Positions 4,376 to 18,965 of a stretch of DNA of 34,873 bases are shown here, piece after piece. The DNA is taken from assembly GCA_964585405.1 (NCBI GenBank), contig CAZPDU010000070.1:1-34873 (forward strand), in the 5' to 3' direction. Every line of letters starts with the position of its first letter. Within the stretch, counting starts at the first letter, position 1. A model generated the notes under the pieces. It saw only the letters and a list, made by a program, of their open reading frames with translations. It did not search any database and was not told the DNA's origin. This stretch comes from an uncultured Thermodesulfobacteriaceae bacterium (GTDB lineage: Bacteria; Desulfobacterota; Dissulfuribacteria; Dissulfuribacterales; UBA3076). Both the position numbers and the translations under genes were made by a program.

Positions 4376-5515
4376 CTATTCATAGTGCTGATAGGTCAAA
4401 TATCCAGAGGCCCTGCATAAGGCATCTCGCCTTGCATCTAGTATATCCTTTTTCACCATTTCGCGTATCATGTCTCTAAAACTGATTTTGGGCCGCCAGT
4501 CCAATTGCACTGATGCCTTGGATGGATCTCCGATCAACGCATCGACTTCGGTTGGTCGAAAATAACGTGAATCTATGGCTACAACCACATCACCGGGTTT
4601 AGGCATCTTGCGTCGCTGTTCTTCAGACAGGGCAGGGGAATCCTCTATGCTTTTGAGAATACCTTTCTCCAATAGATCCTTTCCTTCCCATTCGATTACC
4701 ATTCCTGCTTCCATAAATGTCAGTTCACAAAATTCTCTTACAGAGTGCTGTTCTCCTGTGGCAATTACATAATCATCCGGTTCATTTTGCTGGAGCATAA
4801 GCCACTGAGCCTCAACAAAGTCCCTGGCATGGCCCCAGTCTCTCCTTGAGTTCAGGTTACCTAGATAAAGCCTATCTTGAAGACCAAGGCCTATGCGGGC
4901 TACCGCGCGAGTGATCTTGCGAGTTACAAAAGTCTCGCCACGAATAGGTGACTCGTGATTGAACAGAATGCCATTGCACGCATAAATGCCATATGCCTCA
5001 CGATAATTGATTGTAATCCAATATGCATAGACCTTTGCCGCAGCATATGGGGAGCGGGGATAAAATGGAGTGGTTTCCTTCTGCGGCACCTCGCGAGCAG
5101 CACCGAACATTTCTGATGACGAGGCCTGATAGAAACGGGTCTTCTGTGTTAGTCCAAGAAGTCGAATTGATTCCAAAAGCCGCAAGGTCCCAAGTGCGTC
5201 TGAATTAGCGGTATATTCAGGGGTCTCGAACGACACCTGGACATGACTCTGTGCTGCCAAATTGTAAATTTCATCCGGCTGAACATCTTGAACAATGCGG
5301 ATCAGGTTAGTTGCGTCAGTGAGATCTCCGTAATGGAGAATCATGCGCCGGTCAGGTTCATGAGGATCCTGGTATAGGTGGTCAATACGGTCTGTATTGA
5401 AAAGGGAGGCCCTTCTCTTTATACCATGAACCTCATAATCTTTTTTTAACAAAAATTCAGCAAGATATGCTCCATCCTGTCCAGTGATGCCTGTTATAAG
5501 TGCCTTTTTCCGCAT
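4376..5515 (-). CDS. gmd: GDP-mannose 4,6-dehydratase
   Basis: [66 protein letters not shown]. Confidence 0.99.
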
Positions 5516-5623
5516 GAGCTTAAGTTACCTTTCTCCCAGAGGTTATGTATTTCGAAGTAACATAGGCATTCCTGTCTTTTTTCTCGCACTTTCCGCAATA
5601 TTTACGATTTGCATGGTCTGGGT

Positions 5624-6580
5624 TCATTTATAGAATCTGCTGGAGCGCAAACTTAGGCCATTTTGATAATATTTATAAGTCATGGCAATTCCATCGCGTA
5701 ATCCGATACGTGCTTTCCAGCCCATGGCCTGCAACTTGGAGACATCTGAGAGCTTCCTTAATGTGCCATCAGGCTTTGTTCTGTCCCACAGGATCTCTCC
5801 TTGATGCCCTGTGATCTCCTGAATAAGTTTGGCCAATCGCTCAATCGAAATATCCTTTCCCGTCCCTACATTCAGGATATTTTCAGGTGCTATTTCCCTT
5901 GACATTGAAAATATGCATGCATCAGCCAAGTCGTCTACATACAGGAATTCCCGCTTAGGCTGGCCCGTCCCCCAGAGCGTAACCGGAGTATGCCCGGAAA
6001 GTTTGGCTTCGTGAAATTTGCGGAGTATGGCAGGGAGGACATGGGAATCTTCAAGGTCAAAATTATCGCCGGGACCATAAAGATTCGTAGGCATTAGAGA
6101 AAAAAAATTACAACCATGCTGTCTTGCATAGGCCTGACACAACTTAAGACCGGCAATCTTGGCAACGGCGTATGGTTCATTCGTTGGTTCCAGAGGGCCG
6201 GTCAGAAGATACTCTTCACGAATGGGCTGGGGACAATCCTTGGGATAAATACATGAACTGCCGAGAAATAACAGTCTACGAACACCAAAACGATAAGCAG
6301 CGTGAATCACATTTGTTGAAATTGCAAGATTGTCATATATGAAGTCAGCAGGATAGCTGCTGTTCGCAAAAATACCACCTACTCTGGCTGCTGCTAAAAA
6401 GACGAATTCCGGACGCACCTCCTCAAAAAAACGCATTACCGCCCCCTGATCCCTGAGGTCCAGTTCCGAGCTAGTTTTGAGTACGAGATTTAAATAACCT
6501 GCTGCCTGAAGTCGTCTTGTGATGGCAGATCCTACCAGACCACGATGGCCCGCAATATAGATTCGACTGTTAGTTTCTAT
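5624..6580 (-). CDS. fcl: GDP-L-fucose synthase; conserved N-terminus begins at an ATA codon
   Basis: LAAARVGGI, LGSSCIYP, LEPTNEPYAVAK, MPTNLYGP, SHVLPA. The frame stays open 48 codons upstream of the ORF-track ATG (6436), giving (I/M)ETNSRIYIAGHRGLVGSA, the NADPH-binding motif. An in-frame TAG lies two codons before the ATA. Confidence 0.95.
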   Translation of the reverse strand: METNSRIYIAGHRGLVGSAITRRLQAAGYLNLVLKTSSELDLRDQGAVMRFFEEVRPEFVFLAAARVGGIFANSSYPADFIYDNLAISTNVIHAAYRFGVRRLLFLGSSCIYPKDCPQPIREEYLLTGPLEPTNEPYAVAKIAGLKLCQAYARQHGCNFFSLMPTNLYGPGDNFDLEDSHVLPAILRKFHEAKLSGHTPVTLWGTGQPKREFLYVDDLADACIFSMSREIAPENILNVGTGKDISIERLAKLIQEITGHQGEILWDRTKPDGTLRKLSDVSKLQAMGWKARIGLRDGIAMTYKYYQNGLSLRSSRFYK

Positions 6581-6706
6581 ATCCTATTTCCTTTTAAAAA
6601 TATGCGATCAAGCCCTCTTAATTAAGCTAATGACTTACTGTCAACTCTATAAACAAAATTATTTTAAAATATATAAAGTATCTTGACAAGTAATGCCGAT
6701 ACATAA

Positions 6707-6729
6707 TATGAGTAAAAATATTACTCATA
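6707..6729. promoter_or_regulatory. Perfect inverted repeat, putative operator
   Basis: TATGAGTAA-aaata-TTACTCATA, located between TTGACA (6683-6688) and the start of the wHTH gene (6742), in the divergent fcl/wHTH intergenic region. Confidence 0.7.
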
Positions 6730-6741
6730 AGGTGTTTATGA

Positions 6742-7290
6742 ATGGAAAATTTGTTTGCAGGGCTCATAGCCTCAAAGACCAGAGTAAAACTGTTGATCCG
6801 TTTCTTTTTTAACCCGAAGGCACGTTCATACCTGAGAGAACTAGCCAAAGAATTCAATGTTTCAACGAATTCGGTTCGGGAAGAACTCAATCAGCTTACA
6901 AGGACAAAACTACTCATATCCAAAAGAGACGGCCGCCAGGTCTATTATTCAGCAGATACCAGTCATCCGCTTTTTCCCGAACTCAAATCAATGGTGAGCA
7001 AGGTAATGGGAATCGATCAGGTCATTGACGGTATCATCAACAGGTTGGGTGATATTGAAGAGGCATATCTGATTGATGACTATGCAGAAGGCAAGGATAC
7101 GGGCATAATTGATCTTCTGTTGGTAGGAGATGTGGATCAATATCATCTGAATGATTTGAGTAGAAAAACAGAACGCTATATTAAGAGAAAAATACGCACA
7201 CTGGTACTAAGCAGGGATGAGTATAAAAACCTGTTGCCAAAATTAAAAAAGCGGCATTGCATACTGATATGGCAGGCAAAGAAAGAATAA
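6742..7290 (+). CDS. ArsR-like winged-HTH protein fused to a degenerate minimal nucleotidyltransferase-like domain
   Basis: N-terminal SKTRVKLL...YLRELAKEFNVSTNSVREELNQL...GRQVYY (wHTH). C-terminal AYLIDDYAEGKDTGIIDLLLVG resembles the Pol-beta-type MNT motif. Confidence 0.8.
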   Translation: MENLFAGLIASKTRVKLLIRFFFNPKARSYLRELAKEFNVSTNSVREELNQLTRTKLLISKRDGRQVYYSADTSHPLFPELKSMVSKVMGIDQVIDGIINRLGDIEEAYLIDDYAEGKDTGIIDLLLVGDVDQYHLNDLSRKTERYIKRKIRTLVLSRDEYKNLLPKLKKRHCILIWQAKKE

Positions 7291-7294
7291 GTCT

Positions 7295-8602
7295 ATGGTT
7301 CCCATAAATTTGGAGGGTTTTAAACGCTATTTTGTCAATACTTCATGGTTGCTGGGCCATCGTGTATTGAGCATGGTTGTTGCCCTTTTTGTAGGAGTTT
7401 ATGTTGCCAGATATCTCGGTCCGGAAAAATTTGGACTTTTAAACTACGCGGCTAGCTTTGTCAGTCTTTTTGCAGCGCTGGCAACTCTTGGCCTTGACGG
7501 TATTATAGTACGGGAACTGATCAAGGCTCCGGAACACGGAAATGAACTGCTTGGCACTGTTTTCTGCTTAAAAGCAGGCGGTGCAGTCTTGATGTGGATT
7601 GCCATCGCAGTCGCGGTTCCTTTTACCCATAATGATACTCAAACCAATATCTTAATTGTTATCATCGCATTTGCCGTTATCCTCCAGGCATTTAACGTCA
7701 TTGATCTTAATTATCAGGCAGAGGTAAAATCAAAATATGTGGTATACGCCCAACTTGTCTCCCTAATCACATCTTCAATAGCTAAACTGGTGTTTGTCTG
7801 GACAGGGGCACCGCTTGTCTGGTTTGCATGTGTCTTTCTGCTTGATGCGTTTGTGCAGGCAATGGGACTGCTTGCTGTATATCTGAAAAATACGGGCAAA
7901 ATTTGGTATTGGAGATGGAAATGGCAGACTGCAAAGACATTGTTGAGTGATAGCTGGCCGTTGATATTGTCAGGAATGGTGATTGCAATTTATATGAAGA
8001 TCGATCAGGTGATGATTAAGGAAATGCTGGATGCCTCGGCAGTTGGGAATTATGCGGCCGCAGTGAGATTGAGCGAGGCATGGTATTTTATACCCATGGC
8101 AATTACGTCATCTGTTTTCCCGGCTATTATCAATGCCAAAAAACAGAGTGAAGAGCTTTACAATCAGAGATTGCAGAAATTATATGATTTGATGGTCTGG
8201 CTATCGCTGTCTATTGCAATACCTACTACGTTTCTGGCTCCCCGGGTAATCAAATTATTGTATGGGCAGGCCTTTTTACCGGCGGCAGGGGTTTTGAGTA
8301 TTCATATCTGGGCTGGGGTGTTTGTGTTTTTGGGATGTGCGAGCGGGAAGTGGTTACTTACAGAAAATTTGCAGATTTTTTCAACGATTAATACAAGTAT
8401 AGGTGCAATACTAAATATAATTTTAAATTATATTCTAATAAAAAAAATAGGAATTAATGGTGCAGCTATATCGACATTGATATCATATTTTATAGCAGCC
8501 TATTTTTGTTTATTTTTCTTTGAAAGAACAAGAATAAACTTTATTAAGTTGACAAAAAGTTTATGTCTAAAAGGAATTTTTAGTGTTAAAGAGAATAGCT
8601 AA
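7295..8602 (+). CDS. wzx: Wzx-type oligosaccharide flippase (MOP/PST family)
   Basis: Hydrophobic multi-pass protein with ARYLGPEKFG, IYMKIDQVMI, VGNYAAAVRLSE, GINGAAISTL. Confidence 0.93.
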   Translation: MVPINLEGFKRYFVNTSWLLGHRVLSMVVALFVGVYVARYLGPEKFGLLNYAASFVSLFAALATLGLDGIIVRELIKAPEHGNELLGTVFCLKAGGAVLMWIAIAVAVPFTHNDTQTNILIVIIAFAVILQAFNVIDLNYQAEVKSKYVVYAQLVSLITSSIAKLVFVWTGAPLVWFACVFLLDAFVQAMGLLAVYLKNTGKIWYWRWKWQTAKTLLSDSWPLILSGMVIAIYMKIDQVMIKEMLDASAVGNYAAAVRLSEAWYFIPMAITSSVFPAIINAKKQSEELYNQRLQKLYDLMVWLSLSIAIPTTFLAPRVIKLLYGQAFLPAAGVLSIHIWAGVFVFLGCASGKWLLTENLQIFSTINTSIGAILNIILNYILIKKIGINGAAISTLISYFIAAYFCLFFFERTRINFIKLTKSLCLKGIFSVKENS

Positions 8603-9335
8603 AATAATCTTACCTAAATATGTAATAAAAAAACTCAATATTATTAATAATAATTATTTTGATGGATATGCTCTTAAATCATATTCTCAAGAAGGTGAAG
8701 ATATGATTTTAAGAAGATTATTCGAAAAACAGAAAAAAGGTTTTTATGTAGATATTGGTGCACATCATCCAAAACGATTTTCTAACACATTCTTTTTTTA
8801 TAAAAATGGATGGCGTGGTATAAATATTGATGCAATGAAAAATAGCATGTATTTATTTAATAAAATAAGACCAAGAGATATTAATATAGAAATTCCGATT
8901 TCGGATAAAAAACAGAAACAAAAATATTATATGTTTAACGAACCAGCATTAAATACCTTCTCAAATGAGATCGCAGCAAAAAGAAATAATAAGGATATTT
9001 ATAATATTATATGTGAAAAAGAGATGGAAACTTCAACTCTCGAAGAGATATTTAACAGATATTTGCCAAGTGGCCAGGAAATCGATTTCATGTCTATTGA
9101 TGTTGAGGGACTTGATTTACAAGTCCTTAAATCAAATGATTGGAGCCGATTTAGACCGAAATTTGTATTGGTAGAGATGCTAAATTGTTCAATCAAAGAT
9201 ATAGCAATATCAAGAACATATAAATATCTTTCTGAGTTTGAATACGACTTCTTTGCAAAGACTTTGAACACAGTTTTTTTCCAAAGAGTGGATATTAAAG
9301 ACCAAAGTTTAGTGGCTAAAACCCAAAAGATTTGA
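8583..9335 (+). CDS. FkbM-family SAM-dependent methyltransferase
   Basis: SYSQEGED, FYVDIGAHHP, WRGINID, IDFMSIDVEG. GTG start overlaps the end of wzx. Confidence 0.92.
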   Translation: MLKRIAKIILPKYVIKKLNIINNNYFDGYALKSYSQEGEDMILRRLFEKQKKGFYVDIGAHHPKRFSNTFFFYKNGWRGINIDAMKNSMYLFNKIRPRDINIEIPISDKKQKQKYYMFNEPALNTFSNEIAAKRNNKDIYNIICEKEMETSTLEEIFNRYLPSGQEIDFMSIDVEGLDLQVLKSNDWSRFRPKFVLVEMLNCSIKDIAISRTYKYLSEFEYDFFAKTLNTVFFQRVDIKDQSLVAKTQKI

Positions 9336-9364
9336 ATACTCAACTATAACATTTCGTATATAAA

Positions 9365-10276
9365 ATGAATTTAGCCCCTATAGTTCTTTTCGTATACAAC
9401 CGCCCGTGGCACACTCAACAAACTGTTAAAGCTCTCCAGAAAAATGAGCTGGCTGATCTGAGTGACCTGTTCATCTATTCAGATGGCCCTAAAGACGATC
9501 AAAGTCAAGAAACGGTTCAAAAGGTCAGAAAGTATATTCATACTATTGATGGATTTAAGACATTAACTGTTCAAAAACGAGAAAAAAATTTGGGTTTAGC
9601 CAATTCCATTATTTCTGGTGTTACAGAAATAGTTAACAAATATGACCGGATTATTGTATTAGAGGATGATATAACCACGTCACCCTATTTTTTGAGATAT
9701 ATGAATGATGCTCTTAATTTTTACCAAGACGAAGAGAGAATAATGCATATCTCCGGCTATATGTTTCCAGTTAATTACATAGGACTTCAGGAAACTTTTT
9801 TCTACCGAGTCACGTCATGCTGGGGATGGGCAACGTGGAGCCGAGCATGGAAGTATTTCAAAAAAGATGTCAAATGGGTATATCAAATTTTTTCGAAGGA
9901 AGAAAGAAGAGCCTTCAACCTCGACGGCAGTCACAATTTTTGGTCTCAAGTAGAAGGCAATAAATTAGGCAAATTAAATAGCTGGGCAATTTTTTGGTAT
10001 GCCTCGGTCTTCAAAAACCAAGGTCTATGCCTGCATCCCTGTCAGTCACTCACTAATAATATCGGACATGACGGTTCCGGAATTCATTGCGGCAATTCCA
10101 AAAAATTTACGGTTTCGCCTATAGATAAACCTATTAGCTATTTTGAGACCTCAATCAAAGAGGACCAGTTAGCTTTAGCAAGAATGAAGTCTTTTTATCG
10201 CCGCCACGATGGAAATATTATTCAACGTTTGGCCGGTTCTTTAAAACAAAAATGTTTCTATAATGCAGTCCATTAA
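9365..10276 (+). CDS. GT-A fold glycosyltransferase (GT2-like)
   Basis: APIVLFVYNRP, IYSDGP, NLGLANSI, IIVLEDD, SCWGWATW, NIGHDGSG. Confidence 0.9.
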   Translation: MNLAPIVLFVYNRPWHTQQTVKALQKNELADLSDLFIYSDGPKDDQSQETVQKVRKYIHTIDGFKTLTVQKREKNLGLANSIISGVTEIVNKYDRIIVLEDDITTSPYFLRYMNDALNFYQDEERIMHISGYMFPVNYIGLQETFFYRVTSCWGWATWSRAWKYFKKDVKWVYQIFSKEERRAFNLDGSHNFWSQVEGNKLGKLNSWAIFWYASVFKNQGLCLHPCQSLTNNIGHDGSGIHCGNSKKFTVSPIDKPISYFETSIKEDQLALARMKSFYRRHDGNIIQRLAGSLKQKCFYNAVH

Positions 10277-11129
10277 TAAGGAACGCGAAATATCATTTAG
10301 AGATATTTGCTTGGCTGAGAGCGATAAAAGGGAAGTTGAAAGACTGTTAAAAATATCACCTCATAATCCACCTCAACTGGAGGATATATGGATGTTGATG
10401 GACAAAGTATGGGATGAGTTTGGATGTGATAATCGGAAACCGGACTGGAAAAACATCAGAAAATTTTATTCTCATCCAATATGGTTATTAAATGGACTTT
10501 TTATTGAACAACATGATTTGTCAATGCAACGCAGGAATGCAATCAGTGATTGGATTGATTATAATCCTTCTATAAGAAAAATATTGGACTACGGCGGCGG
10601 TTTCGGCACGCTGGCCAGATTAATTAATAACAAAAAACCCTCTTTATTAGTGGATATATATGAACCACACCTTTCTTATTATTCAAGACAAAAAATATCC
10701 GATTATCCCCAAATACAATTTATTAGTAAGATTAAAGACAGGTATGATGCCCTTGTAAGCACCGATGTGCTCGAACATGTACCTGATCCTCTGAAAACAT
10801 TTGAGGAAATGATTTTATCTGTCAAGAATAATGGGTATTTGATTATTGCCAACAATTTTTTCCCGATCATAAAATGCCATCTGCCACAAACATTTCATTT
10901 AAGATATACTTTTAATATATTTGCAAAACTTATGGGTCTGGTAATTTGTGGACCATTAGAAGAAAGCCATGCAACGATATTCAAAAAAAATAGTAATAAA
11001 CCTGTTAATTGGCGAATTGTCAGGCCGTTAGAAAAAGTATCTAAAGGTCTCTTTCCTTTCCTTCAGTTTTCCAAACCGGTTTTAAGACCGATTTACAAGT
11101 TTGTGAAACATGAATATTCTTCACGTTAA
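10263..11129 (+). CDS. Class I SAM-dependent methyltransferase
   Basis: ILDYGGGFG motif I, YDALVSTDVLEHVPDP, NGYLII. Confidence 0.9.
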   Translation: MQSINKEREISFRDICLAESDKREVERLLKISPHNPPQLEDIWMLMDKVWDEFGCDNRKPDWKNIRKFYSHPIWLLNGLFIEQHDLSMQRRNAISDWIDYNPSIRKILDYGGGFGTLARLINNKKPSLLVDIYEPHLSYYSRQKISDYPQIQFISKIKDRYDALVSTDVLEHVPDPLKTFEEMILSVKNNGYLIIANNFFPIIKCHLPQTFHLRYTFNIFAKLMGLVICGPLEESHATIFKKNSNKPVNWRIVRPLEKVSKGLFPFLQFSKPVLRPIYKFVKHEYSSR

Positions 11130-12382: not shown

Positions 12383-13306
12383 TTAAATTGACTTATGATT
12401 GGTTTTTGAAAAACTTTCTGCTTGAATCAAGTAGATGCCTCGATGAATTAGATAGCTAATTACATAACGTAAAATATTAAGCCCTAATCCTATAAAATAG
12501 CATCCTGGTATAGGATAATGTTTTTTAAAAAGTGGGGAAAGCTGTTGTATATCCCTATGAGAGCGTCTATTTTTAAAAGTTTCAAGAAATTGGCGAAATG
12601 TGAGGATTCCAGGGCTTTGAGCCAAGGATGTCTTTTCTTGATCAATAAAGACTTTTGTGTCTGTCGCAATAAAGAGCGGTATTCCGGATTTGCGGCATCT
12701 TATGTAAAAGTCATGATCTGCATAATAGTGAGGCAGGCTTTCGTCGTCAAGCAAACCTATGCGTTTAAATATTGAAGCAGGTATCAGAACACCTCGCCCC
12801 CCTGCAATAAGTTTGGTCTCTACAAGGCCATTATGTGCCTTTTTCTTGGCTGCGCTTATATTTCTGGTAGCCAAAAAAGTTGGGAAACCGATTAATAAGG
12901 CTGTTCTTGCTGTTATTACAAGGACTTTACCCGTAGACGCATCGCACTGAACAGGGGCTATAATGGCTTCACCCTTAATCTGTTTAAGACGATTAACCAA
13001 TTTTTCAATTGTGTCTGGTTCAAGAAAACAGTCATTATTCAAAAGCATTACTGCATCAGCGCCTCTTTTTAAGGCCTCTTTTATTCCTAAATTAGTTGCT
13101 CCTGACCACCAAAGTTTTTCGCTTCCTATTACTCGAATTACTTCAGGAAATTCTAGCTGTAATTCAGACTTGGTATTATCCGTAGAGCCGTGATCTACTA
13201 CTATGACTTCAAAATTTGTGTATGTACTTTTTTGCATTGATTCCAGACATAGGCGAGTTTGCCTCCACCCGTTATATGCCGGGATGACTATGAAAACCTT
13301 AATCAT
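12383..13306 (-). CDS. GT2 glycosyltransferase (WbbL/rhamnosyltransferase-like)
   Basis: IVIPAYN, VVDHGSTD, LWWSGATN, LLNND, HYYADHDF. Confidence 0.9.
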   Translation of the reverse strand: MIKVFIVIPAYNGWRQTRLCLESMQKSTYTNFEVIVVDHGSTDNTKSELQLEFPEVIRVIGSEKLWWSGATNLGIKEALKRGADAVMLLNNDCFLEPDTIEKLVNRLKQIKGEAIIAPVQCDASTGKVLVITARTALLIGFPTFLATRNISAAKKKAHNGLVETKLIAGGRGVLIPASIFKRIGLLDDESLPHYYADHDFYIRCRKSGIPLFIATDTKVFIDQEKTSLAQSPGILTFRQFLETFKNRRSHRDIQQLSPLFKKHYPIPGCYFIGLGLNILRYVISYLIHRGIYLIQAESFSKTNHKSI

Positions 13307-13322: not shown

Positions 13323-14222
13323 TTAAAGCCGTTTAGAATAATAATCTCTCAAAAGACCCTGTACCCCAGCGGGGAGTGAGCTTACAGCCAGAGATAGAAA
13401 AGCGCTCATGCTCGGATACGTTTTGATTGAATGGGCAAGATCCTGACGTGCCTTTGTCATATTACCATAATAGAGGGCATGTTGACCCCAATAACGAAAG
13501 GCCTCCGCCATTATAATTCTTTTTTTTTGCATATAGATATGAGGGGCTCGATTTAATGCCTTATCTATTATCTTAAAATAATCTGTTCTCATCTGTTCAA
13601 AAGGTTGAATAGTTGAATAACTATTTTTTTGCTTGTGAACCCTTACTAAAGGTTCTGGAATTTCAATGACCCGAGAAATCTCGCCCAATCGAATCCAAAG
13701 ATCAAGATCCTCCCTTGTCTTTAACGATTCATCAAAACCACCAACTTTATCCAAAAATTTTTTTCTACATAACGTGGAGGAAGTACATTGCAAAGGATTT
13801 GGCCATAAAATAGTATGCCATTTATTTCGGCTTGGAGAACGGTAATTACGTATTGTTTCTCCCCCCTGTTCATCTCTGCGTATTTGCCAGCTATAGGTTA
13901 ATCCTGCCGAATTATCTTCTTGAATGATGCCAACAGCCTTTTCCAGATATCCGGGAAGCCATTCGTCATCAGCATCCAAAAAAGCTGCAAATTCTCCCTT
14001 GCATTCAGCAATACCGCAATTACGCGCAGCAGAAGGGCCGGCTTGCTTTTGGAAAATATAATGCACTTTACTTCCAAATTGTTTTACTACTTTACTGGTA
14101 TTATCAGTAGAACCATTATCTACGACAATAATTTCATTTTGGACTTTTTGTGTTAAAGCTGAACGGATAGCACGCTCAATAAAAGATTCACTATTATATG
14201 CGGGGATAATGACAGACAACAT
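13323..14222 (-). CDS. GT2 glycosyltransferase
   Basis: SVIIPAYN, VVDNGSTD, GPSAARNCG, FLDADD, GGFDE, EDLDLW. Confidence 0.93.
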   Translation of the reverse strand: MLSVIIPAYNSESFIERAIRSALTQKVQNEIIVVDNGSTDNTSKVVKQFGSKVHYIFQKQAGPSAARNCGIAECKGEFAAFLDADDEWLPGYLEKAVGIIQEDNSAGLTYSWQIRRDEQGGETIRNYRSPSRNKWHTILWPNPLQCTSSTLCRKKFLDKVGGFDESLKTREDLDLWIRLGEISRVIEIPEPLVRVHKQKNSYSTIQPFEQMRTDYFKIIDKALNRAPHIYMQKKRIIMAEAFRYWGQHALYYGNMTKARQDLAHSIKTYPSMSAFLSLAVSSLPAGVQGLLRDYYSKRL

Positions 14223-14293
14223 TTTAATATTTATGTAGTATATGAGTGTTATAATATATTTTTAGATTCTGATTTTTTAACAGGATTATCAAT

Positions 14294-15493
14294 CTATGGC
14301 TTAGTCCTTTTAAAAGATTGTATTGCCTCTTCATACAGCTGATTATATTGTTTTGCTGTATTGTTCCAGGTTAGCTCATGTTCCAGCATCCATTTACGGC
14401 CAGCAAGGCCGGCTGCCTTGAGATCTCTTTTGCCCTTGATTATATCATCAAGGGCAATTGATAACGCATTTTCAGCCCCTGGAGGCACTAACCATCCAGC
14501 TTCACTATTTGTAACCAGTTCACGCGTTCCATCAATATCTGTGGCCAACACAGGCATGGCTGCCGCCATTGCCTCGTGGACTACACTGGGCCTGCCTTCC
14601 AGATAACTAGGGAGAATAAAAAGGTGATGATCTCCCATCAGTTCTGCAATTTGAGCTGGAGACACATTTCCCAAAAAATGCACATTTGCATCAATTCCTA
14701 AAATGGCCGCAAGTGAGCTCAGATAGCCTTTTTCAGGCCCGCTTCCAACCACAGTCAGCATCCATGGGAAATCAGTTTTTGAAATAGCTAACGCTTTTAA
14801 AAGCACGTCTAAACCTTTACGGGGAATCAAGCTTCCAATGAAAAGTAGCTTAAATGGCGACACGGAAACACTTTGACGATTGCGAGGCACGGCATAAAAG
14901 ACATCGTCGGCACCATCTGAGACAAATTTGATCTTTTCAGTCATGTCTGGATTTTGTCTTTTGAGCTCATTCGTAATCGCCTGACTCACTCCGATTGTAA
15001 AACTGGAACCTTTAAGGGATTTATTGTGCAGCCAAGAAAAAGGCCCAAGCTTTTTTGCCTTGTGAATATCTGATCCCCTGAGGGTAGTGACAACTGGTTT
15101 ACGGTGTATAGGTTGGGTTAATATTGCTACGGCCCCGCAGGCAGACCAGTGGGCATGTATAATATCATTCCGTTTGGCCAGCTTAATAAGTGATAAAGCC
15201 ATACTGCTCAGAAAAGGCGGAAGCAGTCCATATAGCAAGGGTTGTTCAGCCAGTGCCGTAGGTATTCCTCCCGGTTGCTGAGCTAAACGTTGCCAGTACC
15301 ATGGCGCATAACGAAAACGGATAACATTATAGTTATTAGGCCAGGTTGCACATTGAATGCCTGAAGGAGTCAATACGGTACACACAAGGTCTAGTTTTAT
15401 TTCCGCCAGTACCAGCCTGTGTACGAAAGGGCCTGAAATATCACTAGGGCTGGATGGATATGACGTTGTAAGGTGTAGTATCCGCAATGTCAT
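14294..15493 (-). CDS. GT4 glycosyltransferase
   Basis: LTTSYP, IIHAHW, FIGSLIPRKG, EGRPSVVHEAMA (ExxxxxxxE). Confidence 0.93.
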   Translation of the reverse strand: MTLRILHLTTSYPSSPSDISGPFVHRLVLAEIKLDLVCTVLTPSGIQCATWPNNYNVIRFRYAPWYWQRLAQQPGGIPTALAEQPLLYGLLPPFLSSMALSLIKLAKRNDIIHAHWSACGAVAILTQPIHRKPVVTTLRGSDIHKAKKLGPFSWLHNKSLKGSSFTIGVSQAITNELKRQNPDMTEKIKFVSDGADDVFYAVPRNRQSVSVSPFKLLFIGSLIPRKGLDVLLKALAISKTDFPWMLTVVGSGPEKGYLSSLAAILGIDANVHFLGNVSPAQIAELMGDHHLFILPSYLEGRPSVVHEAMAAAMPVLATDIDGTRELVTNSEAGWLVPPGAENALSIALDDIIKGKRDLKAAGLAGRKWMLEHELTWNNTAKQYNQLYEEAIQSFKRTKP

Positions 15494-15788
15494 TATTGAA
15501 GGCCTTGATTATAGTCCATGTCAAACCACATGGCGCAAAAAAGAACTGCAGTCCAAAAATATAAGGAAATGCGGAAAAGAGTGTATTGGCTTTGTTTACG
15601 GTACCTTTTCGGTTACGATCAAGTAGCATGATAGATCTCTAAAAGTAAAACACATTTTGTAAGAGTTAGACCTAACAATACACTTTCCAATAATTGAGTT
15701 TCGCCCATAGTTTTTACTAATAAGATATTCTTTTACAATTTTCTGAACGGTTTATTAGTTGTGTTGAGGTATAGAAAATTGACGTGAA

Positions 15789-15822
15789 GTGAAACTCCCC
15801 GCCATAAATGGCCGGGTATTCC
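15789..15822. repeat. Imperfect GC-rich palindrome resembling a REP or IS200/IS605-type end
   Basis: GTGAAACT-CCCCGCCA-TAAA-TGGCCGGG-TATTCC: 8-bp stem with one mismatch in an AT-rich spacer. Family resemblance is from memory, not from a search. Confidence 0.35.
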
Positions 15823-15885
15823 GCATGGATTTTATAAAGATACATACTTAGAAGCAGTAGGATGCAAATGGCAGAAAATTATTTT

Positions 15886-16734
15886 TTATTCCACTCGATC
15901 ATAGCGCATCTGGGTAATCTGTTCAGAAATGAGCCCCATCAGAAAAACCATTATTCCAACACTTAGGAGTAATGCCGACATATTTGTAAAACTGTGGTGT
16001 GTGCAATAACTATATATATAATATACCAGGCCAGTGAGTAAGAAAAAGGCACTAACCGGTAAAAAAATCCTCATCGGTGAAAATAGTGTTGCGATGCGCA
16101 GAATAATAAGGATAAATCTTGAACCATCCTCTAAAAGCTTTATTTTGCTTTCACCTATTCTTCTGTGCTGACAAATTGGAACGTACTTGATTGTATAGCC
16201 GCTTCGAAGATAGGTAAGGGTACTGGTTGTCGGATAAGAAAATGTATTGGGAAAGAGATACAGAAATTTTATTACTTTATCCTTATGTAAGACCCTGAAG
16301 CCGGATGTAAGATCCTTTATTGGGTATTTGGCAACGTAAGAAGCCAGTTTGTTGTAAAACCAATTAGCTATTCTACGCCCTAATGAGGCGTGATTAATAG
16401 AACTGCGGGCACCAACCACCATGTCGTAATGTTCCGACTCCTCAAGAAGCCTTGCGATATCAGCCGGATCATGTTGCCCGTCTCCATCCATCAACACTAT
16501 TAAGTCTCCCGAGGCGTTTCGTATACCTGTCTTAACCGCTGCCCCATTGCCGATGTTATAAGGATGCTGAATGACCTTTGCCCCGGCCTCCCGAGCCTTA
16601 TTTGCAGTGTTGTCCGTGCTGCCGTCATCAATCACGAGAATCTCAAAATCAGGGTAAAGTGAATTGATGTGAGCAACTATTTGGCCGATTACGGTCTCTT
16701 CATTATAGGCAGGTATAACTATCGATATATTCAC
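15886..16734 (-). CDS. DPM1-like GT2 (polyprenol-phosphate glycosyltransferase) with two C-terminal TM helices
   Basis: IPAYNEE, IDDGSTD, NIGNGAAVKTG, MDGDGQHDP, DMVVGAR, DLTSGFR, RRIGESK and a hydrophobic C-terminus. GTG start overlaps the OST stop (GTGA, 16734-16731). Confidence 0.92.
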   Translation of the reverse strand: MNISIVIPAYNEETVIGQIVAHINSLYPDFEILVIDDGSTDNTANKAREAGAKVIQHPYNIGNGAAVKTGIRNASGDLIVLMDGDGQHDPADIARLLEESEHYDMVVGARSSINHASLGRRIANWFYNKLASYVAKYPIKDLTSGFRVLHKDKVIKFLYLFPNTFSYPTTSTLTYLRSGYTIKYVPICQHRRIGESKIKLLEDGSRFILIILRIATLFSPMRIFLPVSAFFLLTGLVYYIYSYCTHHSFTNMSALLLSVGIMVFLMGLISEQITQMRYDRVE

Positions 16735-18965
16735 TGTCCCCTATCTCCTACTACCTCCCAAAGTTGATATGATGGAGTATTTATAACTACAGGCCTGAAA
16801 TATGCGGGATTAAAAGTATATCTTAAAAATAATTTATTAAAAACCGATTCTGAAATATGCATGTCCATCAAGGCCCCAAACCTTGGAGAGATCCACATCT
16901 CGAAGTGTGGTCCGCTATCTCTTTGATAGCTTTTGCTAAGTATTCTCTGCCTCTCACGTTTAACAAGATGCGTAAGACCTATCATCCTATTACTTGTCCG
17001 CAAGATTCCCTTTTCTATATGGATATCCAGACCCTCGCTTCCCTTTATATATCCGTTTTCTTCACGCACATTATAAAAGGCCTTGTATACTGGATGTATT
17101 CCTTCTCTCTTTTCTACATCCCAGGTACCAAGCCAATACCACCAATAGCTGGTGACAGTGAGACGCCAATCCAGAAAGAGATAAACAGGACGAGTATTTT
17201 GCGGATAGAAAAAGCAAAGCCACTTATCCACATCCTGTAAATCTCCGACAGGCTCGAGTTCTGCTGAAGACAACAATTCCCTTGCCTTCGCGGGACCAGC
17301 TGACAGGACACCTTTAATGAGATCTACACCTCGGACAGGATCATTGCCTACCGCCTTATAGACATTACTAATACCATCCATTCCTGAGCTTACATAAAAG
17401 CGCATGAAGTTGGCTGCCAGACGTTCATCGCACGTGGCAAAAGGAAGGCCATTGTAAAAGGATCTGTGTCCGCCGTGAAGCGAACCGTCACCCACAGTCC
17501 CCCTTGCGGCCCAGTAATTCAAAGGATATCCATGGTCCCACCATGCCCAGATCACTGCATCTTTGGGGGTTTCTCTTGATGCCATATCCATGCCGGCGAC
17601 AAGGTGCGGAGGCTCCTTGGGCCAGAATGTTTTATCCATGTCCTTACTCAGAGCCGGCCATACAATAACAATTACCAATATAGGTGCTAATATAGAAAGA
17701 ATGAAAATTTTTCGGCGCCAGTACCAGATCTCGGATATCATATATCCTATTCCAAGGGCTGTAACAGGCGCAAAAAAGATCAGAAAGCGCTTGGCGAAAA
17801 AAAACGACAGCGCAGCCAGTATCAATGGAACGGATATAAACAGACTCTCCTTTGGACGACGATAGAATAAACACATAAGACCTGCGCATGCAAAAATGAA
17901 TGCAGGAAGGCTGTCGGTTGTCTTGGCTACAATCTCGTTGAATGAAGGTATTGCCTGCTCTGAAATTGTGGCCCCAATTGGAGGCCAAATCTCGGCTACT
18001 TCCTTTGTAGATATGTAGTGAAAGGAATTTGCGACATGTCTAAAAATCTTGAGCGGAAGATCCAGACCCATCCACAGTAGTATCACTCCGATTGCCAGCC
18101 CAGCTATTCCTAAAAATATAAATGCCTCTCTTCTTACGGGACGATAAAAAAATACCAGTGCCACAGCTAATGGTAACATCGAGACAACCGTCGTTACCTG
18201 AGGAGTTTGATCCCACCACCATAGAAAAAGCAAAAAAATAGCCATACCGCCGATAAAATAGAGATAACGCTTCCGATCGACTTCAATACCAAACTTAAGG
18301 AAGCAAAAAGCAGCCCCTGTGGCCCATGTGACGTTCATGCAATCTGTGTCAAACCAGCCTAAACTGCTCCTATAAACATAGTAATGTGAGAGCAACCCCA
18401 TTAGCGCGGCAGTGAGGCCCATGGCTGGACCTCCGTAAAAACGTCCCAATGCATATAAAGGCAGAGCCAGTAAAAGACCGAGGAATGCAGGAAGTACTGC
18501 CCCAATCCAGTTCAGAGAAAAAGGCGTAATTTTGGCCAAGCCTGCAGCCATCATCGAAATGAGGGGCGGTGGAATTTTTCTCGATACACCCTTGGGCACA
18601 TCACGATTTTTATCTACCGACGTATATGTGCCTTCAGCAAGATCCTTTGCCATAGTAAGATAGAAATAGCCATCAAAGGTGGTAAGTAAGGGCTCTCCTT
18701 TGTATAGAGCCAGTTCGGGGTGATTTTTCCAGTCCCGGATATCCTCTATGCGCACAAGCAGACCCACTCCAAGGATAAGTAAAAGTGCCAAGGCCTCTAT
18801 CCATAGGTTGTATTGAGCAAGGCGTTTGACATGATCCGTTACAGTATTTTTCCATTTATGAATATACAGCGATCCAATATCTCGAGAGCTTATCGCTGGA
18901 ACGGCAGTGATGGGTGCTGATTTTTTTTTGATCTTGGCCAAAGGCCTTTTACTTTTGCGACTCAA
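16731..18965 (-). CDS. pglB: STT3/PglB/AglB-family oligosaccharyltransferase (protein N-glycosylation)
   Basis: Multi-pass N-terminal half with TTFDGYFY (catalytic Asp), YRSSLGWFDTD (DxD), TISE (TIxE) and KRF. Soluble C-terminal domain with WWDHG (17543-17529) followed by DGSLH. Confidence 0.93.
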   Translation of the reverse strand: MSRKSKRPLAKIKKKSAPITAVPAISSRDIGSLYIHKWKNTVTDHVKRLAQYNLWIEALALLLILGVGLLVRIEDIRDWKNHPELALYKGEPLLTTFDGYFYLTMAKDLAEGTYTSVDKNRDVPKGVSRKIPPPLISMMAAGLAKITPFSLNWIGAVLPAFLGLLLALPLYALGRFYGGPAMGLTAALMGLLSHYYVYRSSLGWFDTDCMNVTWATGAAFCFLKFGIEVDRKRYLYFIGGMAIFLLFLWWWDQTPQVTTVVSMLPLAVALVFFYRPVRREAFIFLGIAGLAIGVILLWMGLDLPLKIFRHVANSFHYISTKEVAEIWPPIGATISEQAIPSFNEIVAKTTDSLPAFIFACAGLMCLFYRRPKESLFISVPLILAALSFFFAKRFLIFFAPVTALGIGYMISEIWYWRRKIFILSILAPILVIVIVWPALSKDMDKTFWPKEPPHLVAGMDMASRETPKDAVIWAWWDHGYPLNYWAARGTVGDGSLHGGHRSFYNGLPFATCDERLAANFMRFYVSSGMDGISNVYKAVGNDPVRGVDLIKGVLSAGPAKARELLSSAELEPVGDLQDVDKWLCFFYPQNTRPVYLFLDWRLTVTSYWWYWLGTWDVEKREGIHPVYKAFYNVREENGYIKGSEGLDIHIEKGILRTSNRMIGLTHLVKRERQRILSKSYQRDSGPHFEMWISPRFGALMDMHISESVFNKLFLRYTFNPAYFRPVVINTPSYQLWEVVGDRGQ

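What the first reader, a model, noticed from the sequence alone, without database searches (positions are those of the whole stretch)
4376..18965. Self-contained Wzx-dependent protein N-glycosylation locus built around an STT3/PglB-type OST
Seen: an OST with all catalytic motifs (D in TFDGYFY, DTD, TISE, WWDHG) heads a run of four glycosyltransferases. That run converges on a second unit with Wzx, two more GTs and two methyltransferases, next to gmd/fcl. No Wzy, Wzz, WaaL, PglK or bacillosamine genes are in the window. Established: the Campylobacter pgl system uses the ABC flippase PglK and PglC/DEF, and deltaproteobacterial PglBs are known but their native glycans and assembly pathways are poorly characterised. 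Inference: a single non-polymerised oligosaccharide is flipped by Wzx and transferred to Asn of envelope proteins, a bacterial N-glycosylation pathway with a non-Campylobacter architecture.
Basis: partly seen in the sequence, partly recalled or inferred. Interest (0 to 1): 0.85.

Follow-up and report, generated by a model that had tools for sequence, protein, structure and literature searches.

The report
PglB-type glycosylation operon beside variable sugar island
A sulfate-reducer-type bacterium carries an intact enzyme for attaching sugars to protein asparagines, and its steadiest gene partner is an archaeal-style lipid-sugar synthase rather than the neighbouring Wzx flippase unit, which hints at an unusual way of building the sugar donor.

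Summary
The genes are there as described. A PglB-type STT3 oligosaccharyltransferase (16731-18965, -) keeps every catalytic motif and models as C. lari PglB (TM 0.69-0.73). Four glycosyltransferase genes follow it. A convergent reg-wzx-MT-GT-MT-GT operon and gmd/fcl lie beside them.

The reading "self-contained, Wzx-dependent" is only partly supported. No initiating phosphoglycosyltransferase is in the window. Wzy_C/WaaL-like, Wzz and Wzt genes lie elsewhere in the genome. The wzx cassette is low-GC, strain-variable and occurs unlinked to the OST in other genomes. It does, however, recur beside the OST operon in several lineages.

The "first GT" is a polyprenyl-phosphate glycosyltransferase of the AglJ/DPMS/ArnC/GtrB type. 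It overlaps the OST gene by 4 bp and is the conserved partner: adjacent in 40 of 74 OST loci, and present in 20 of 26 OST-bearing against 22 of 375 other genomes. Phosphoglycosyltransferase homologues sit beside the OST in 1 of the 80 OST loci. A distant relative has OST-GtrA-GtrB.

Best reading: an N-glycosylation module whose lipid-linked donor is started on undecaprenyl monophosphate, as in Euryarchaeota. It sits at the edge of a variable glycan island next to LPS-core genes. Whether Wzx serves it is open. This is a new variant of a known kind and is untested biochemically.

The parts
16731..18965 (-). PglB-type STT3 oligosaccharyltransferase (744 aa, TTG start)
   Evidence: Pfam STT3 and STT3-PglB core both score over their cut-offs. 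The catalytic motifs are read and are invariant in 15 homologues. The best PDB sequence match is C. lari PglB at 1.2e-20. The AF2 model has pLDDT 80.1. Foldseek gives 5ogl_A at E 4.9e-26 and TM 0.69/0.73, against about 0.5 for STT3 and AglB.
15886..16734 (-). Polyprenyl-phosphate glycosyltransferase (AglJ/DPMS/ArnC/GtrB type, 'type A', 282 aa, two C-terminal TM segments). Its GTG start overlaps the OST stop by 4 nt.
   Evidence: The best NCBIfam model is AglJ TIGR04182 (141 bits, full length, below the cut-off of 325). PDB matches are DPMS 5mlz at 3.3e-17, ArnC 9hwj at 6.5e-17 over residues 2-273, and GtrB 5ekp. TM-like segments start at residues 207 and 248. It is adjacent to the OST in 40 of 74 loci.
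15494..15885 (.). 392-bp non-coding gap. Its first ~100 nt (15494-15593) are a remnant of the 3' end of a 'type B' 315-aa AglJ-like GT2 gene.
   Evidence: No ORF with a family match lies here. blastn gives 76-79% identity to the 3' ends of the 315-aa GT2 genes of L012, L014, L016, L049, L062, L139 and L145.
14294..15493 (-). GT4 glycosyltransferase ('GT4a'), the third most conserved neighbour of the OST
   Evidence: Pfam Glycos_transf_1 at 3.2e-36. It lies within four genes of the OST in 16 loci. It also lies beside the PP-GT in OST-less or unlinked loci L089, L106 and L108.
13323..14222 (-). GT2 glycosyltransferase ('GT2b')
   Evidence: Pfam Glycos_transf_2 at 7.2e-38. A 60%-identical copy sits in the same position in G032.
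12383..13306 (-). GT2 glycosyltransferase ('GT2c'), strain-variable
   Evidence: Pfam Glycos_transf_2 at 1e-20. No orthologue was found in the related loci.
11110..12351 (+). GT4 glycosyltransferase, last gene of the wzx operon
   Evidence: Pfam. A 46%-identical copy lies in the unlinked G170 cassette. Logan contigs of X1 and X2 break and overlap at 11766-11788 inside this gene.
10263..11129 (+). SAM-dependent methyltransferase
   Evidence: Pfam Methyltransf_23 at 3.4e-11.
9365..10276 (+). GT-A fold glycosyltransferase
   Evidence: Pfam is only weak (GNT-I at 2.4e-4). ESM Atlas features score 0.99 and structure TM 0.92-0.96 to clusters labelled Glycos_transf_2/GNT-I.
8583..9335 (+). FkbM-family methyltransferase
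   Evidence: Pfam Methyltransf_21 at 1.7e-19.
7295..8602 (+). Wzx-type MOP flippase (435 aa)
   Evidence: Pfam Polysacc_synt at 2.7e-30. It has 10 TM-like segments. Its 3' part lies in the strain-variable stretch.
6742..7290 (+). Winged-HTH regulator heading the wzx operon
   Evidence: Weak GntR and ArsR-type HTH matches. It is 98% identical in G412 and 51-76% identical in other families, usually at the head of glycan operons.
5624..6582 (-). GDP-L-fucose synthase (fcl). The ATG ORF is 5624-6436. The Rossmann motif is encoded in frame upstream, with no ATG/GTG/TTG start before it.
   Evidence: NCBIfam Fcl scores 419 bits (cut-off 500) and aligns from model position 47. The upstream frame reads ...RIYIAGHRGLVGSAI... 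after an in-frame TAG. G412 has ATG and an open frame there.
4376..5515 (-). GDP-mannose 4,6-dehydratase (gmd)
   Evidence: Pfam GDP_Man_Dehyd at 8.4e-153.
19088..21961 (-). glnE. This is the conserved upstream neighbour of the OST in the window's order, not part of the system.
   Evidence: Pfam GlnE. It is adjacent to the OST in 20 loci.
22236..26364 (+). LPS inner-core genes bordering the island: waaF, gmhB, a waaC-like heptosyltransferase and an hldE-type kinase. waaA lies further on at 29918-31207.
   Evidence: Pfam. NCBIfam heptosyltransferase II scores 250 bits against a cut-off of 134.6.

Best explanation
The window holds a functional PglB-type N-oligosaccharyltransferase operon. Its conserved core is the OST plus a translationally coupled polyprenyl-phosphate glycosyltransferase (PP-GT, AglJ/DPMS/GtrB type), often with one GT4.

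Proposed mechanism:
1. The PP-GT puts the first sugar on undecaprenyl monophosphate at the cytoplasmic face. No phosphoglycosyltransferase makes an Und-PP-sugar here.
2. GT4a, and in this strain the two GT2s, extend the glycan.
3. The lipid-linked glycan is flipped. The flippase is unknown; the neighbouring Wzx is the only candidate in the window.
4. The OST transfers the glycan to Asn of N-X-S/T sequons in periplasmic or envelope proteins.

The operon sits at one edge of a strain-variable glycan-gene island next to LPS inner-core genes. The other edge is a separable reg-wzx-MT-GT-MT-GT cassette with gmd/fcl. That cassette makes a non-polymerised, probably fucosylated and methylated unit. Its acceptor (protein via the OST, or lipid A-core via a WaaL-like ligase encoded elsewhere) is undecided.

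Shown: gene identities, motif conservation, fold, synteny and co-occurrence. Inferred: every biochemical step, including the monophosphate linkage.
For: The OST is intact and PglB-like.

PP-GT identity. The second type found beside other OSTs ('type B', 315 aa) also matches AglJ best, over its full length.

Coupling of OST and PP-GT:
- The two genes overlap by 4 nt.
- A PP-GT lies within three genes of the OST in 40 of 74 loci with a full-length OST, window included. It is downstream in 26, upstream in 12 and near in 2. It spans most of the OST tree. 32 loci have type A and 8 have type B.
- At least 6 of the 34 loci without one have less than 1.8 kb of flank on the downstream side.
- In a phylum sample of 401 genomes, the type-A orthologue (at least 49% identity) occurs in 20 of the 26 genomes with a close OST, against 22 of the 375 without. 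It is adjacent in 13 of those 20. G032, one of the 6 misses, has type B beside its OST.
- MAGs labelled Thiotrichales carry OST-PP-GT-GT4 as a block (L074, L079).

No rival initiating enzyme: tblastn with five phosphoglycosyltransferase-family proteins of the own genome found a homologue in only one (L077) of the 80 OST loci, and in none of the later-fetched OST loci.

Independent parallel: a distant OST (26% identity, motifs intact) sits in OST-GtrA-GtrB order. Its GT2 matches Synechocystis GtrB at 7e-112.

In OST-less genomes the same PP-GT family sits beside PMT_2 GT-C enzymes and pilin genes. This fits the usual PP-GT/GT-C partnership (the paradigm is described in PMC11127046, passages read).

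In the own genome no PMT_2 protein scores over the cut-off and no GtrA was found.

Precedent: Euryarchaeota build N-glycans on Dol-P, started by AglJ or AglK (PMC8993221, passages read).

Variable island: GC is 0.31-0.35 at 8-11 kb against 0.40-0.46 around it. Contigs from two other studies diverge at 8340 and 15893. The same-genus genome G412 keeps both flanks at 84-98% identity but has other GTs between them.
Against: - No biochemical data exist for this clade.
- The characterised bacterial PglBs, including those of Desulfovibrio, work with Und-PP-linked donors in E. coli (PMC4894442 and PMC12229607, passages read).
- 22 of the 42 genomes with the PP-GT orthologue lack the OST, so the PP-GT has other uses.
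- In 7 of the 20 genomes with both genes they lie on different contigs.
- Initiating WecA-type enzymes are commonly encoded outside glycan clusters (established knowledge). Their absence from the locus therefore does not exclude them, and the genome has four candidates.
- The own genome has a second GtrB-like gene with a DUF2142 membrane protein and a weak PMT_2-like ORF. The OST is therefore not the only possible GT-C.
- Kin are not independent, so the co-occurrence counts overstate the case.
Confidence: 0.45

Rival explanations
1. An unlinked phosphoglycosyltransferase starts an Und-PP-linked oligosaccharide. The window's GTs and methyltransferases build it (with fucose from gmd/fcl), Wzx flips it, and the OST transfers it to Asn. 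The two convergent operons form one pathway.
For: - Wzx is the only flippase candidate in the window, and no GtrA was found in the genome.
- The cassette lacks a Wzy-like ORF.
- The same convergent architecture is kept in another family of the order. In G032 it reads reg, NusG-like, WbpB/D-like, 10-TM MATE/MOP protein, GT, FkbM, GT10 fucosyltransferase, GT2, converging on GT2b, GT4a, GT2 and the OST.
- Co-directional versions exist in G404 and L062/L073. L049 has the reg and WbpB/WbpD-like genes but no flippase in the DNA held.
- Known PglBs use Und-PP donors and are relaxed about the glycan (PMC4894442, passages read).
- The genome has another, ABC-type O-polysaccharide-like cluster that could serve LPS.
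Against: - A MOP flippase was found within the 10 kb or less held in 4 of 74 related OST loci (a lower bound, because G032's lies 12 kb away).
- The wzx orthologue occurs in 5 of 40 relatives, against the OST in 33 of 40.
- The cassette is unlinked from the OST in G170. In four f61 genomes reg lies on another contig than the OST.
- 15 of the 22 genomes with reg lack the close OST.
- The cassette has low GC and varies between strains.
- The model does not explain why an Und-P glycosyltransferase is the OST's most conserved, translationally coupled partner.
- fcl lacks a canonical start in this genome.
Confidence: 0.25
2. Two unrelated systems lie side by side. The wzx cassette with gmd/fcl makes an LPS outer-core/O-unit or another surface glycan, ligated by a WaaL-like enzyme encoded elsewhere. 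The OST uses only the short glycan of its own operon. The adjacency reflects a shared 'glycan island' next to the LPS-core genes.
For: - The island borders waaF-gmhB-waaC-like-hldE and waaA.
- In G412 the variable part includes a GT9 heptosyltransferase-like gene.
- An orphan Wzy_C-family protein (470 aa, 8 TM-like segments) lies on C109, and Wzz-like genes exist.
- The cassette moves independently of the OST.
- The OST with its PP-GT often sits among housekeeping genes with no other glycan genes.
Against: - Pfam Wzy_C also covers O-oligosaccharyltransferases and polymerases (recalled), so the ligase role is not shown. NCBIfam names neither Wzy_C protein over its cut-off: none at all for C109, and a weak exosortase-associated O-glycosylation ligase hit for C57.
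- The recurrent OST/flippase-operon neighbourhood across families is more than one would expect from chance adjacency.
- The genome already has a Wzt-type cluster and a Wzx+Wzy_C cluster for other glycans.
Confidence: 0.2
3. The STT3-like enzyme does not glycosylate protein. It acts as the GT-C of a Gtr/Arn-type three-component system and moves a single sugar from Und-P-sugar onto LPS or another glycan.
For: - The OST-GtrA-GtrB order in L130.
- PP-GT/GT-C pairs normally decorate glycans or lipid A (PMC11127046, passages read).
- LPS-core genes lie next door in the window.
Against: - The peptide-binding WWDxG motif and all catalytic residues of N-OSTs are invariant, including in L130.
- The whole-length fold match is to PglB, with TM 0.69-0.73 against 0.34 (query-normalised; 0.44 target-normalised) for ArnT.
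- The LPS-core adjacency is confined to the window's order.
Confidence: 0.07

Closest known systems
Campylobacter jejuni / C. lari Pgl pathway (PglB; PDB 3RCE, 5OGL)
   Same: It is a single-subunit STT3-family OST with the same catalytic motifs and overall fold. GT genes accompany it. It lies next to LPS/LOS inner-core genes (the Campylobacter arrangement is recalled).
   Different: - Identity is about 18% in the structural alignment, and the NCBIfam PglB equivalog scores 99 bits against a cut-off of 1300.
- The window has no PglC-type phosphoglycosyltransferase, no PglK ABC flippase and no bacillosamine genes.
- The motif is WWDHG rather than WWDYG.
- The conserved partner is an Und-P glycosyltransferase.
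Desulfovibrio PglB homologues (D. gigas, D. alaskensis, D. vulgaris, D. marinus)
   Same: They are PglB-type OSTs of the same phylum. They are active in E. coli with relaxed sequon rules, and D. gigas HmcA carries a HexNAc3 N-glycan (PMC4894442 and PMC12229607, passages read).
   Different: The window's clade is distinct. It is defined here by full-length matches of at least 33% identity and is found in 26 of 401 sampled genomes. The other STT3-family hits in the phylum sample match at only 23-30% identity. No native assembly pathway is described in the passages I read.
Euryarchaeal Agl pathways (Haloferax AglJ/AglG/AglB, AglR; Methanococcus voltae AglK/AglC/AglB)
   Same: A DPM1-like GT2 puts the first sugar on the polyprenol monophosphate, further GTs extend it, and an STT3-family OST transfers it (PMC8993221, passages read). 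The window's GT2 matches the AglJ model best. A Wzx-like protein (AglR) takes part in Haloferax (recalled).
   Different: The OST here is PglB-type, not AglB-type. The carrier would be undecaprenol, not dolichol. The AglJ equivalog cut-off is not reached (141 bits against 325). The monophosphate linkage is inferred, not shown.
Three-component periplasmic glycosylation systems (Shigella/Salmonella GtrA-GtrB-GtrC; ArnC-ArnT)
   Same: A membrane-anchored GT2 that makes an Und-P-sugar is paired with a GT-C enzyme (PMC11127046, passages read). A distant relative has the literal OST-GtrA-GtrB order.
   Different: The GT-C is an N-oligosaccharyltransferase with a peptide-binding motif. No GtrA was found in the window's genome. 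A GT4 is co-conserved, which suggests an oligosaccharide donor rather than a monosaccharide donor.
Wzx-dependent O-antigen / LOS gene clusters
   Same: The wzx cassette has GTs, methyltransferases and gmd/fcl. It has low GC, varies between strains within conserved flanks, and lies beside LPS-core genes.
   Different: The cassette has no Wzy, Wzz or WaaL and no initiating transferase. It converges on an OST operon, and this arrangement is kept in another family.

Membership tests
STT3/PglB/AglB oligosaccharyltransferases (GT66) | STT3 N-terminal membrane domain and STT3-PglB core domain score over the Pfam cut-offs | tested here: met
   PF02516 scores 66.5 bits against 24.5. PF21436 scores 42 bits against 23.
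STT3/PglB/AglB oligosaccharyltransferases (GT66) | Catalytic acidic residues (D in EL1, DxD, E of the TIxE loop), the conserved Arg and the WWDxG motif | tested here: met
   D98, D206/D208, E336, R393 and W475-G479 are read. They align to the PglB positions and are invariant in 15 homologues.
STT3/PglB/AglB oligosaccharyltransferases (GT66) | Whole-length fold of a single-subunit OST, closest to PglB | tested here: met
   The AF2 model has pLDDT 80.1. Foldseek gives 5ogl_A at E 4.9e-26 and TM 0.69/0.73, human and yeast STT3 at about 0.5, and AfAglB at 0.52.
STT3/PglB/AglB oligosaccharyltransferases (GT66) | Transfer of a lipid-linked glycan to Asn of a sequon | not testable with these tools
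   This needs an enzyme assay or glycoproteomics.
Campylobacter PglB equivalog / Pgl pathway | NCBIfam ProtGlycPglB (NF050801) over its cut-off | tested here: not met
   99.1 bits against a cut-off of 1300.
Campylobacter PglB equivalog / Pgl pathway | PglC-type phosphoglycosyltransferase, PglK ABC flippase and bacillosamine genes (pglDEF) in the locus | tested here: not met
   No such family appears among the window ORFs. Bac_transf and family-4 genes lie only on other contigs.
Polyprenyl-phosphate glycosyltransferases (DPMS/GtrB/ArnC/AglJ type) | GT2 GT-A domain followed by C-terminal transmembrane helices, with full-length likeness to solved members | tested here: met
   PF00535 at 8.2e-33. 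Two TM-like segments start at residues 207 and 248. ArnC 9hwj aligns over residues 2-273 of 282, and DPMS 5mlz matches at 3.3e-17.
Polyprenyl-phosphate glycosyltransferases (DPMS/GtrB/ArnC/AglJ type) | Equivalog-level membership of AglJ (TIGR04182) | tested here: not met
   141.1 bits against a cut-off of 325. It is the best-scoring model but is below threshold.
Polyprenyl-phosphate glycosyltransferases (DPMS/GtrB/ArnC/AglJ type) | Formation of Und-P-sugar from a nucleotide sugar | not testable with these tools
   This needs an enzyme assay.
Gtr-type three-component system | PP-GT, a GtrA-family flippase and a GT-C transferase together | tested here: inconclusive
   The PP-GT and a GT-C (the OST) are present. 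No PF04138 match was found in the own genome, which is 90% complete. All three genes are adjacent in the distant locus L130.
Wzx/Wzy-dependent O-antigen cluster | Wzx flippase in the cluster | tested here: met
   PF01943 at 2.7e-30.
Wzx/Wzy-dependent O-antigen cluster | Wzy polymerase and Wzz in the cluster, and a WaaL ligase in the genome | tested here: inconclusive
   The cassette has no multi-TM ORF other than Wzx. Wzy_C-family genes lie on C57 and C109, and Wzz-like genes on C281, C204 and C99. Their link to this cassette is unknown.

The most novel reading that the evidence does not exclude
A clade of bacterial PglB-type oligosaccharyltransferases has an N-glycan donor built on undecaprenyl MONOphosphate. 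The clade is widespread in Thermodesulfobacteriota and is found as a three-gene block in some MAGs labelled Thiotrichales. An AglJ/AglK-like polyprenyl-phosphate glycosyltransferase starts the donor. This is the euryarchaeal 'alternate' route operating in bacteria, and in one lineage it is reduced to a Gtr-like OST-GtrA-GtrB system that may N-link a single sugar.
Probability: 0.35. Interest if true: 0.8.

Novelty: new variant of a known kind. Interest (0 to 1): 0.62.

Why it matters
Bacterial N-glycosylation is understood almost wholly from the Campylobacter Pgl pathway. There, a phosphoglycosyltransferase starts an Und-PP-linked glycan and an ABC transporter flips it. Deltaproteobacterial PglBs are already used as glycoengineering tools. 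In the passages I read (PMC4894442, PMC12229607) they were assayed only with heterologous glycans in E. coli, and no native donor pathway is described there.

Suppose the conserved OST/PP-GT pair means that these enzymes take monophosphate-linked donors. It would then:
1. show that the P-versus-PP donor split is not an archaea-versus-bacteria divide;
2. bear on how the OST family and its donor pathways evolved;
3. offer a minimal two- or three-gene N-glycosylation module for engineering.

The test is direct. Express the OST, PP-GT and GT4 with a sequon-tagged acceptor in a laboratory E. coli strain, and determine the lipid linkage.

If the pair proves unrelated, the locus is an ordinary PglB homologue beside an ordinary variable surface-glycan cluster.

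Tried and rejected
- Promoter and terminator scans of 4000-22400 gave no more sites than shuffles (46 against 47.3; 19 against 16.0). They were not used for operon calls.
- No RNA holder was listed for 12300-19100, so expression and co-transcription could not be examined.
- Contigs of X3 and X5 leave much of 8.8-15.4 kb uncovered. I used only the points where their contigs diverge.
- My first synteny pass suggested that the wzx unit was 'never' beside an OST. Later calls (83-88) showed this was partly an artefact. Flippase alleles are divergent, and the flank limit is 10 kb, while G032's flippase-like gene lies about 12 kb from the OST and G404's about 18 kb. I therefore report the 4-of-74 count only as a lower bound.
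- An iterative HMM for MOP flippases built from four seeds did not grow beyond 8 sequences and may miss divergent members.
- A named phylogeny of the OST against Campylobacter, Desulfovibrio and archaeal enzymes was not possible. Only a tree of the 74 related loci was built, with the quick method and SH-aLRT support only.
- I did not run complex prediction, because I do not claim that the OST and the PP-GT bind each other.
- Literature. Searches found no paper in the held library that describes a PglB-type OST paired with an AglJ/GtrB-type enzyme. Subscription journals are not covered. Supplements are closed, including Supplementary file 4 of PMC8993221 and SI figures of PMC11127046, which may bear on this.
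- Papers read as passages only: PMC12229607, PMC4973528, PMC8993221, PMC4894442, PMC11127046. Kaminski 2010 is known to me only from the reference list of PMC8993221, and Larkin 2013 and Taguchi 2016 only from in-text citations in its passages.
- Rejected: the OST as a decayed relic, because its motifs are invariant across homologues of 42-89% identity.
- Rejected: fcl as cleanly intact.

Full report
WHAT IS THERE

The window is contig C70 of a 2.61-Mb, 333-contig genome that is 90% complete. The nearest OST homologues come from MAGs labelled Deltaproteobacteria or Thermodesulfobacteriota, two of them labelled 'SeepSRB2'.

ORF calling with Pfam and NCBIfam gives this order, left to right:
- a DnaK fragment, a metallophosphoesterase and a CxxCxxCC protein
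- gmd (4376-5515, -) and fcl (5624-6436, -)
- an HTH regulator (6742-7290, +), Wzx (7295-8602), an FkbM methyltransferase (8583-9335), a GT-A glycosyltransferase (9365-10276; only the ESM Atlas names it firmly), a methyltransferase (10263-11129) and a GT4 (11110-12351)
- converging on these: GT2 (12383-13306, -), GT2 (13323-14222, -) and GT4 (14294-15493, -)
- a 392-bp gap
- a 282-aa GT2 (15886-16734, -) whose GTG start overlaps by 4 nt the stop of the OST (16731-18965, -)
- glnE, then waaF, gmhB, a waaC-like heptosyltransferase, an hldE-type kinase and, further on, waaA

THE OST

- It passes both Pfam STT3-family models.
- Its TFDGYFY, DTD, TISE and WWDHG motifs are in the translation. They align with the catalytic positions of C. 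lari PglB.
- They are invariant in 15 homologues of 42-89% identity, as is R393.
- An AlphaFold2 model built on that alignment (pLDDT 80.1, pTM 0.77) matches PglB structures over the whole length. 5ogl_A gives E 4.9e-26 and TM 0.69/0.73. Eukaryotic STT3 and A. fulgidus AglB reach about 0.5.
- It is far below the NCBIfam PglB equivalog cut-off (99 bits against 1300).

So it is a PglB-type enzyme of its own clade, not an orthologue of Campylobacter PglB. It is the only STT3-family gene in the genome.

THE 'FIRST GT' IS SOMETHING SPECIFIC

The 282-aa GT2 matches the AglJ model best, over its full length and below cut-off. Its nearest solved structures are dolichol-phosphate mannose synthase, ArnC (aligned over residues 2-273) and GtrB. 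It has two C-terminal TM-like segments. These are the marks of a polyprenyl-phosphate glycosyltransferase (PP-GT), an enzyme that makes a polyprenol-monophosphate sugar.

WHAT IS CONSERVED WITH THE OST

I fetched 80 related OST loci, with up to 10 kb of flank each, and clustered their ORFs.

- The AglJ-like GT2 cluster lies within three genes of the OST in 40 of the 74 loci that have a full-length OST ORF, window included. It is directly downstream in 26, directly upstream in 12 and near in 2.
- On an OST tree the pairing covers most clades. The loci without a partner concentrate in three clades, plus at least 6 truncated contigs.
- Two sequence types occur. Type A, as in the window, is in 32 loci. 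A 315-aa type B is in 8 loci. Type B also matches AglJ best over its full length.
- The window's 392-bp gap begins with a ~100-nt remnant of the 3' end of a type-B gene. The lineage has therefore swapped one type for the other while keeping the position.
- GT4a is the next most conserved neighbour (16 loci).
- glnE adjacency is confined to near relatives. Elsewhere the OST, with or without the PP-GT, sits among thrS/rplT or yidC/jag/mnmE genes, with no other glycan genes.

In an evenly drawn sample of 401 genomes of the phylum, 26 have a close OST (full-length match, at least 33% identity) and 42 have a type-A orthologue (at least 49% identity over at least 75% of the query). 20 have both. That is 20 of 26 against 22 of 375. 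The two genes are adjacent in 13 of the 20. Relatives are not independent, so these are descriptive counts.

The PP-GT is not exclusive to OST genomes. In OST-less genomes it lies beside PMT_2-type GT-C proteins, membrane-TPR proteins and pilin genes. That is the usual PP-GT/GT-C partnership (PMC11127046, passages).

A distant STT3-family gene of the phylum (26% identity; DxD and WWDIG present) lies in the order OST, GtrA (PF04138, 2.6e-24), GtrB (5ekp, 7e-112). This is a Gtr-type three-gene unit with an OST in the place of the GT-C.

WHAT IS NOT THERE

tblastn with the genome's own two Bac_transf proteins, two family-4 proteins and MraY found a phosphoglycosyltransferase homologue in only one (L077) of the 80 OST loci, and in none of the later-fetched OST loci (E up to 1e-4, so very divergent enzymes could be missed). 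The own genome has no PMT_2 protein over the cut-off and no GtrA. It does have a second GtrB-like gene with a DUF2142 membrane protein, inside a Wzt ABC-transporter cluster on C293.

THE WZX CASSETTE

Evidence that it is separable from the OST:
- GC falls to 0.31-0.35 between 8 and 11 kb, against 0.40-0.46 around it.
- Contigs from two other studies (X3, X5) follow the window at about 93% identity on both flanks. They diverge at 8340, inside wzx, and at 15893, just at the PP-GT stop.
- The same-genus genome G412 keeps DnaK...gmd-fcl-reg-wzx (85-98% identity) at a contig start, and hldE...glnE-OST-PP-GT (84-94% identity) at a contig end. Different GTs lie beyond, one of them heptosyltransferase-like.
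- The stretch between wzx and the PP-GT is thus a strain-variable glycan island.
- The wzx orthologue (at least 43% identity) was found in 5 of 40 relatives. The OST was found in 33 of 40.
- In G170 a reg-wzx-...-GT-MT-GT4 cassette lies on another contig than the OST.
- reg orthologues (at least 44% identity) occur in 22 of 401 genomes. 7 of these have the close OST, and only in the window and in G032 do reg and OST share a contig.
- None of the three cassettes examined has a Wzy-like multi-TM ORF.

Evidence that it is linked to the OST:
- G032, of another family in the order (OST 60% identical), has the same convergent layout. It reads reg, a NusG-like protein, a WbpB/WbpD-like fusion, a 10-TM MATE/MOP protein, a GT, FkbM, an IS, a GT10 fucosyltransferase and a GT2, converging on GT2b (60%), GT4a (45%), a type-B GT2 and the OST.
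- G404 and L062/L073 have co-directional versions with reg and a flippase further downstream. L049 has the reg and WbpB/WbpD-like genes of the cassette, but no flippase was found in the 10 kb held.
- My count of MOP flippases within the DNA held (4 of 74 relatives) is therefore a lower bound.

Elsewhere the genome has a Wzy_C+Wzx+GT4 cluster (C57), an orphan Wzy_C-family protein (C109), three Wzz-like genes and the Wzt cluster.

READING

The evidence separates a conserved core (OST + PP-GT, with or without GT4a) from a variable periphery. I take three things together: the translationally coupled, phylogenetically persistent pairing with an Und-P glycosyltransferase; the near-total absence of phosphoglycosyltransferases from OST neighbourhoods; and the GtrA-GtrB-OST locus. 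The most economical reading of these is that the PP-GT makes, or starts, the OST's donor. Euryarchaeota do exactly this with AglJ/AglK and AglB on dolichol monophosphate (PMC8993221, passages).

This is inference. The characterised Desulfovibrio PglBs accept Und-PP-linked glycans in E. coli (PMC4894442 and PMC12229607, passages). WecA-type initiators are often encoded elsewhere. The PP-GT family clearly has other clients too.

It does not explain the core pairing, and the cassette's independent distribution counts against it as a rule.

My odds:
- monophosphate-initiated OST module, with the Wzx question open: 0.45
- two unrelated systems side by side, with the OST's own donor route left open: 0.2
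- a non-protein acceptor: 0.07

Under any of these the OST itself is very probably an active N-glycosylating enzyme.

NOVELTY

PglB homologues in deltaproteobacteria are known. In the held library I found no description of their conserved pairing with an AglJ/GtrB-type enzyme, or of a monophosphate route in bacteria. Subscription journals and supplements were not visible. I rate this a new variant of a known kind, of moderate to high interest, with a simple decisive experiment.

Noticed in passing
window 6437-6590 (minus strand, upstream of the fcl ATG ORF): fcl has no ATG/GTG/TTG start before its Rossmann motif. The frame reads TAG, then ...IETNSRIYIAGHRGLVGSAI... The same-genus genome G412 has ATG and an open frame at the matching place. 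This could be a non-canonical start, a recent start-codon loss or a consensus error.
   Followed up: partly
window 15494-15593: The gap between the PP-GT and GT4a begins with a ~100-nt remnant (76-79% identity) of the 3' end of the alternative 315-aa AglJ-like GT2 found beside the OST in other lineages. One PP-GT type has replaced the other at this position.
   Followed up: partly
L130 6037-9751 (a genome of the same phylum): An STT3-family OST (678 aa, WWDIG), GtrA (141 aa) and a GtrB homologue (344 aa; 7e-112 to Synechocystis GtrB) lie in a row. This is a gtrABC-like unit with an OST as the GT-C. Multihaem cytochrome genes and a large repeat protein lie nearby.
   Followed up: partly
L095, L097, L099 (OST-less genomes): Orthologues of the window's PP-GT lie beside PMT_2-type GT-C proteins. 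In L095 and L097 they also lie beside type IV pilin-like genes, and in L095 beside a membrane-TPR protein. This suggests an Und-P-sugar-dependent pilin or protein glycosylation system.
   Followed up: no
own genome contig C293 (L138 1169-12317): A Wzt-type ABC-transporter glycan cluster. It holds two methyltransferases, GT2s, a lipid A acyltransferase, a GtrB-like GT2 and a DUF2142 membrane protein. It is a likely O-polysaccharide pathway, separate from the window.
   Followed up: partly
window 11766-11788: Logan contigs of both possible source runs (X1, X2) end and overlap by 23 nt here, inside the GT4 gene at the boundary between its two Rossmann-like domains. The ORF reads through, but the join rests on the MAG assembly.
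   Followed up: no
L144 2189-8137 (G032); also L049 and L073: A recurrent cassette head: the HTH 'reg' protein, a NusG-like protein (absent in the window), a WbpB/WbpD-like oxidoreductase-acetyltransferase fusion, then a MOP/MATE-type membrane protein. It may be a dedicated antitermination and regulation unit for glycan operons in this phylum.
   Followed up: no
window 22236-31207: LPS inner-core genes (waaF, gmhB, a waaC-like gene, an hldE-type kinase, waaA) flank the OST region. From memory, the Campylobacter pgl locus also adjoins the LOS core genes.
   Followed up: no
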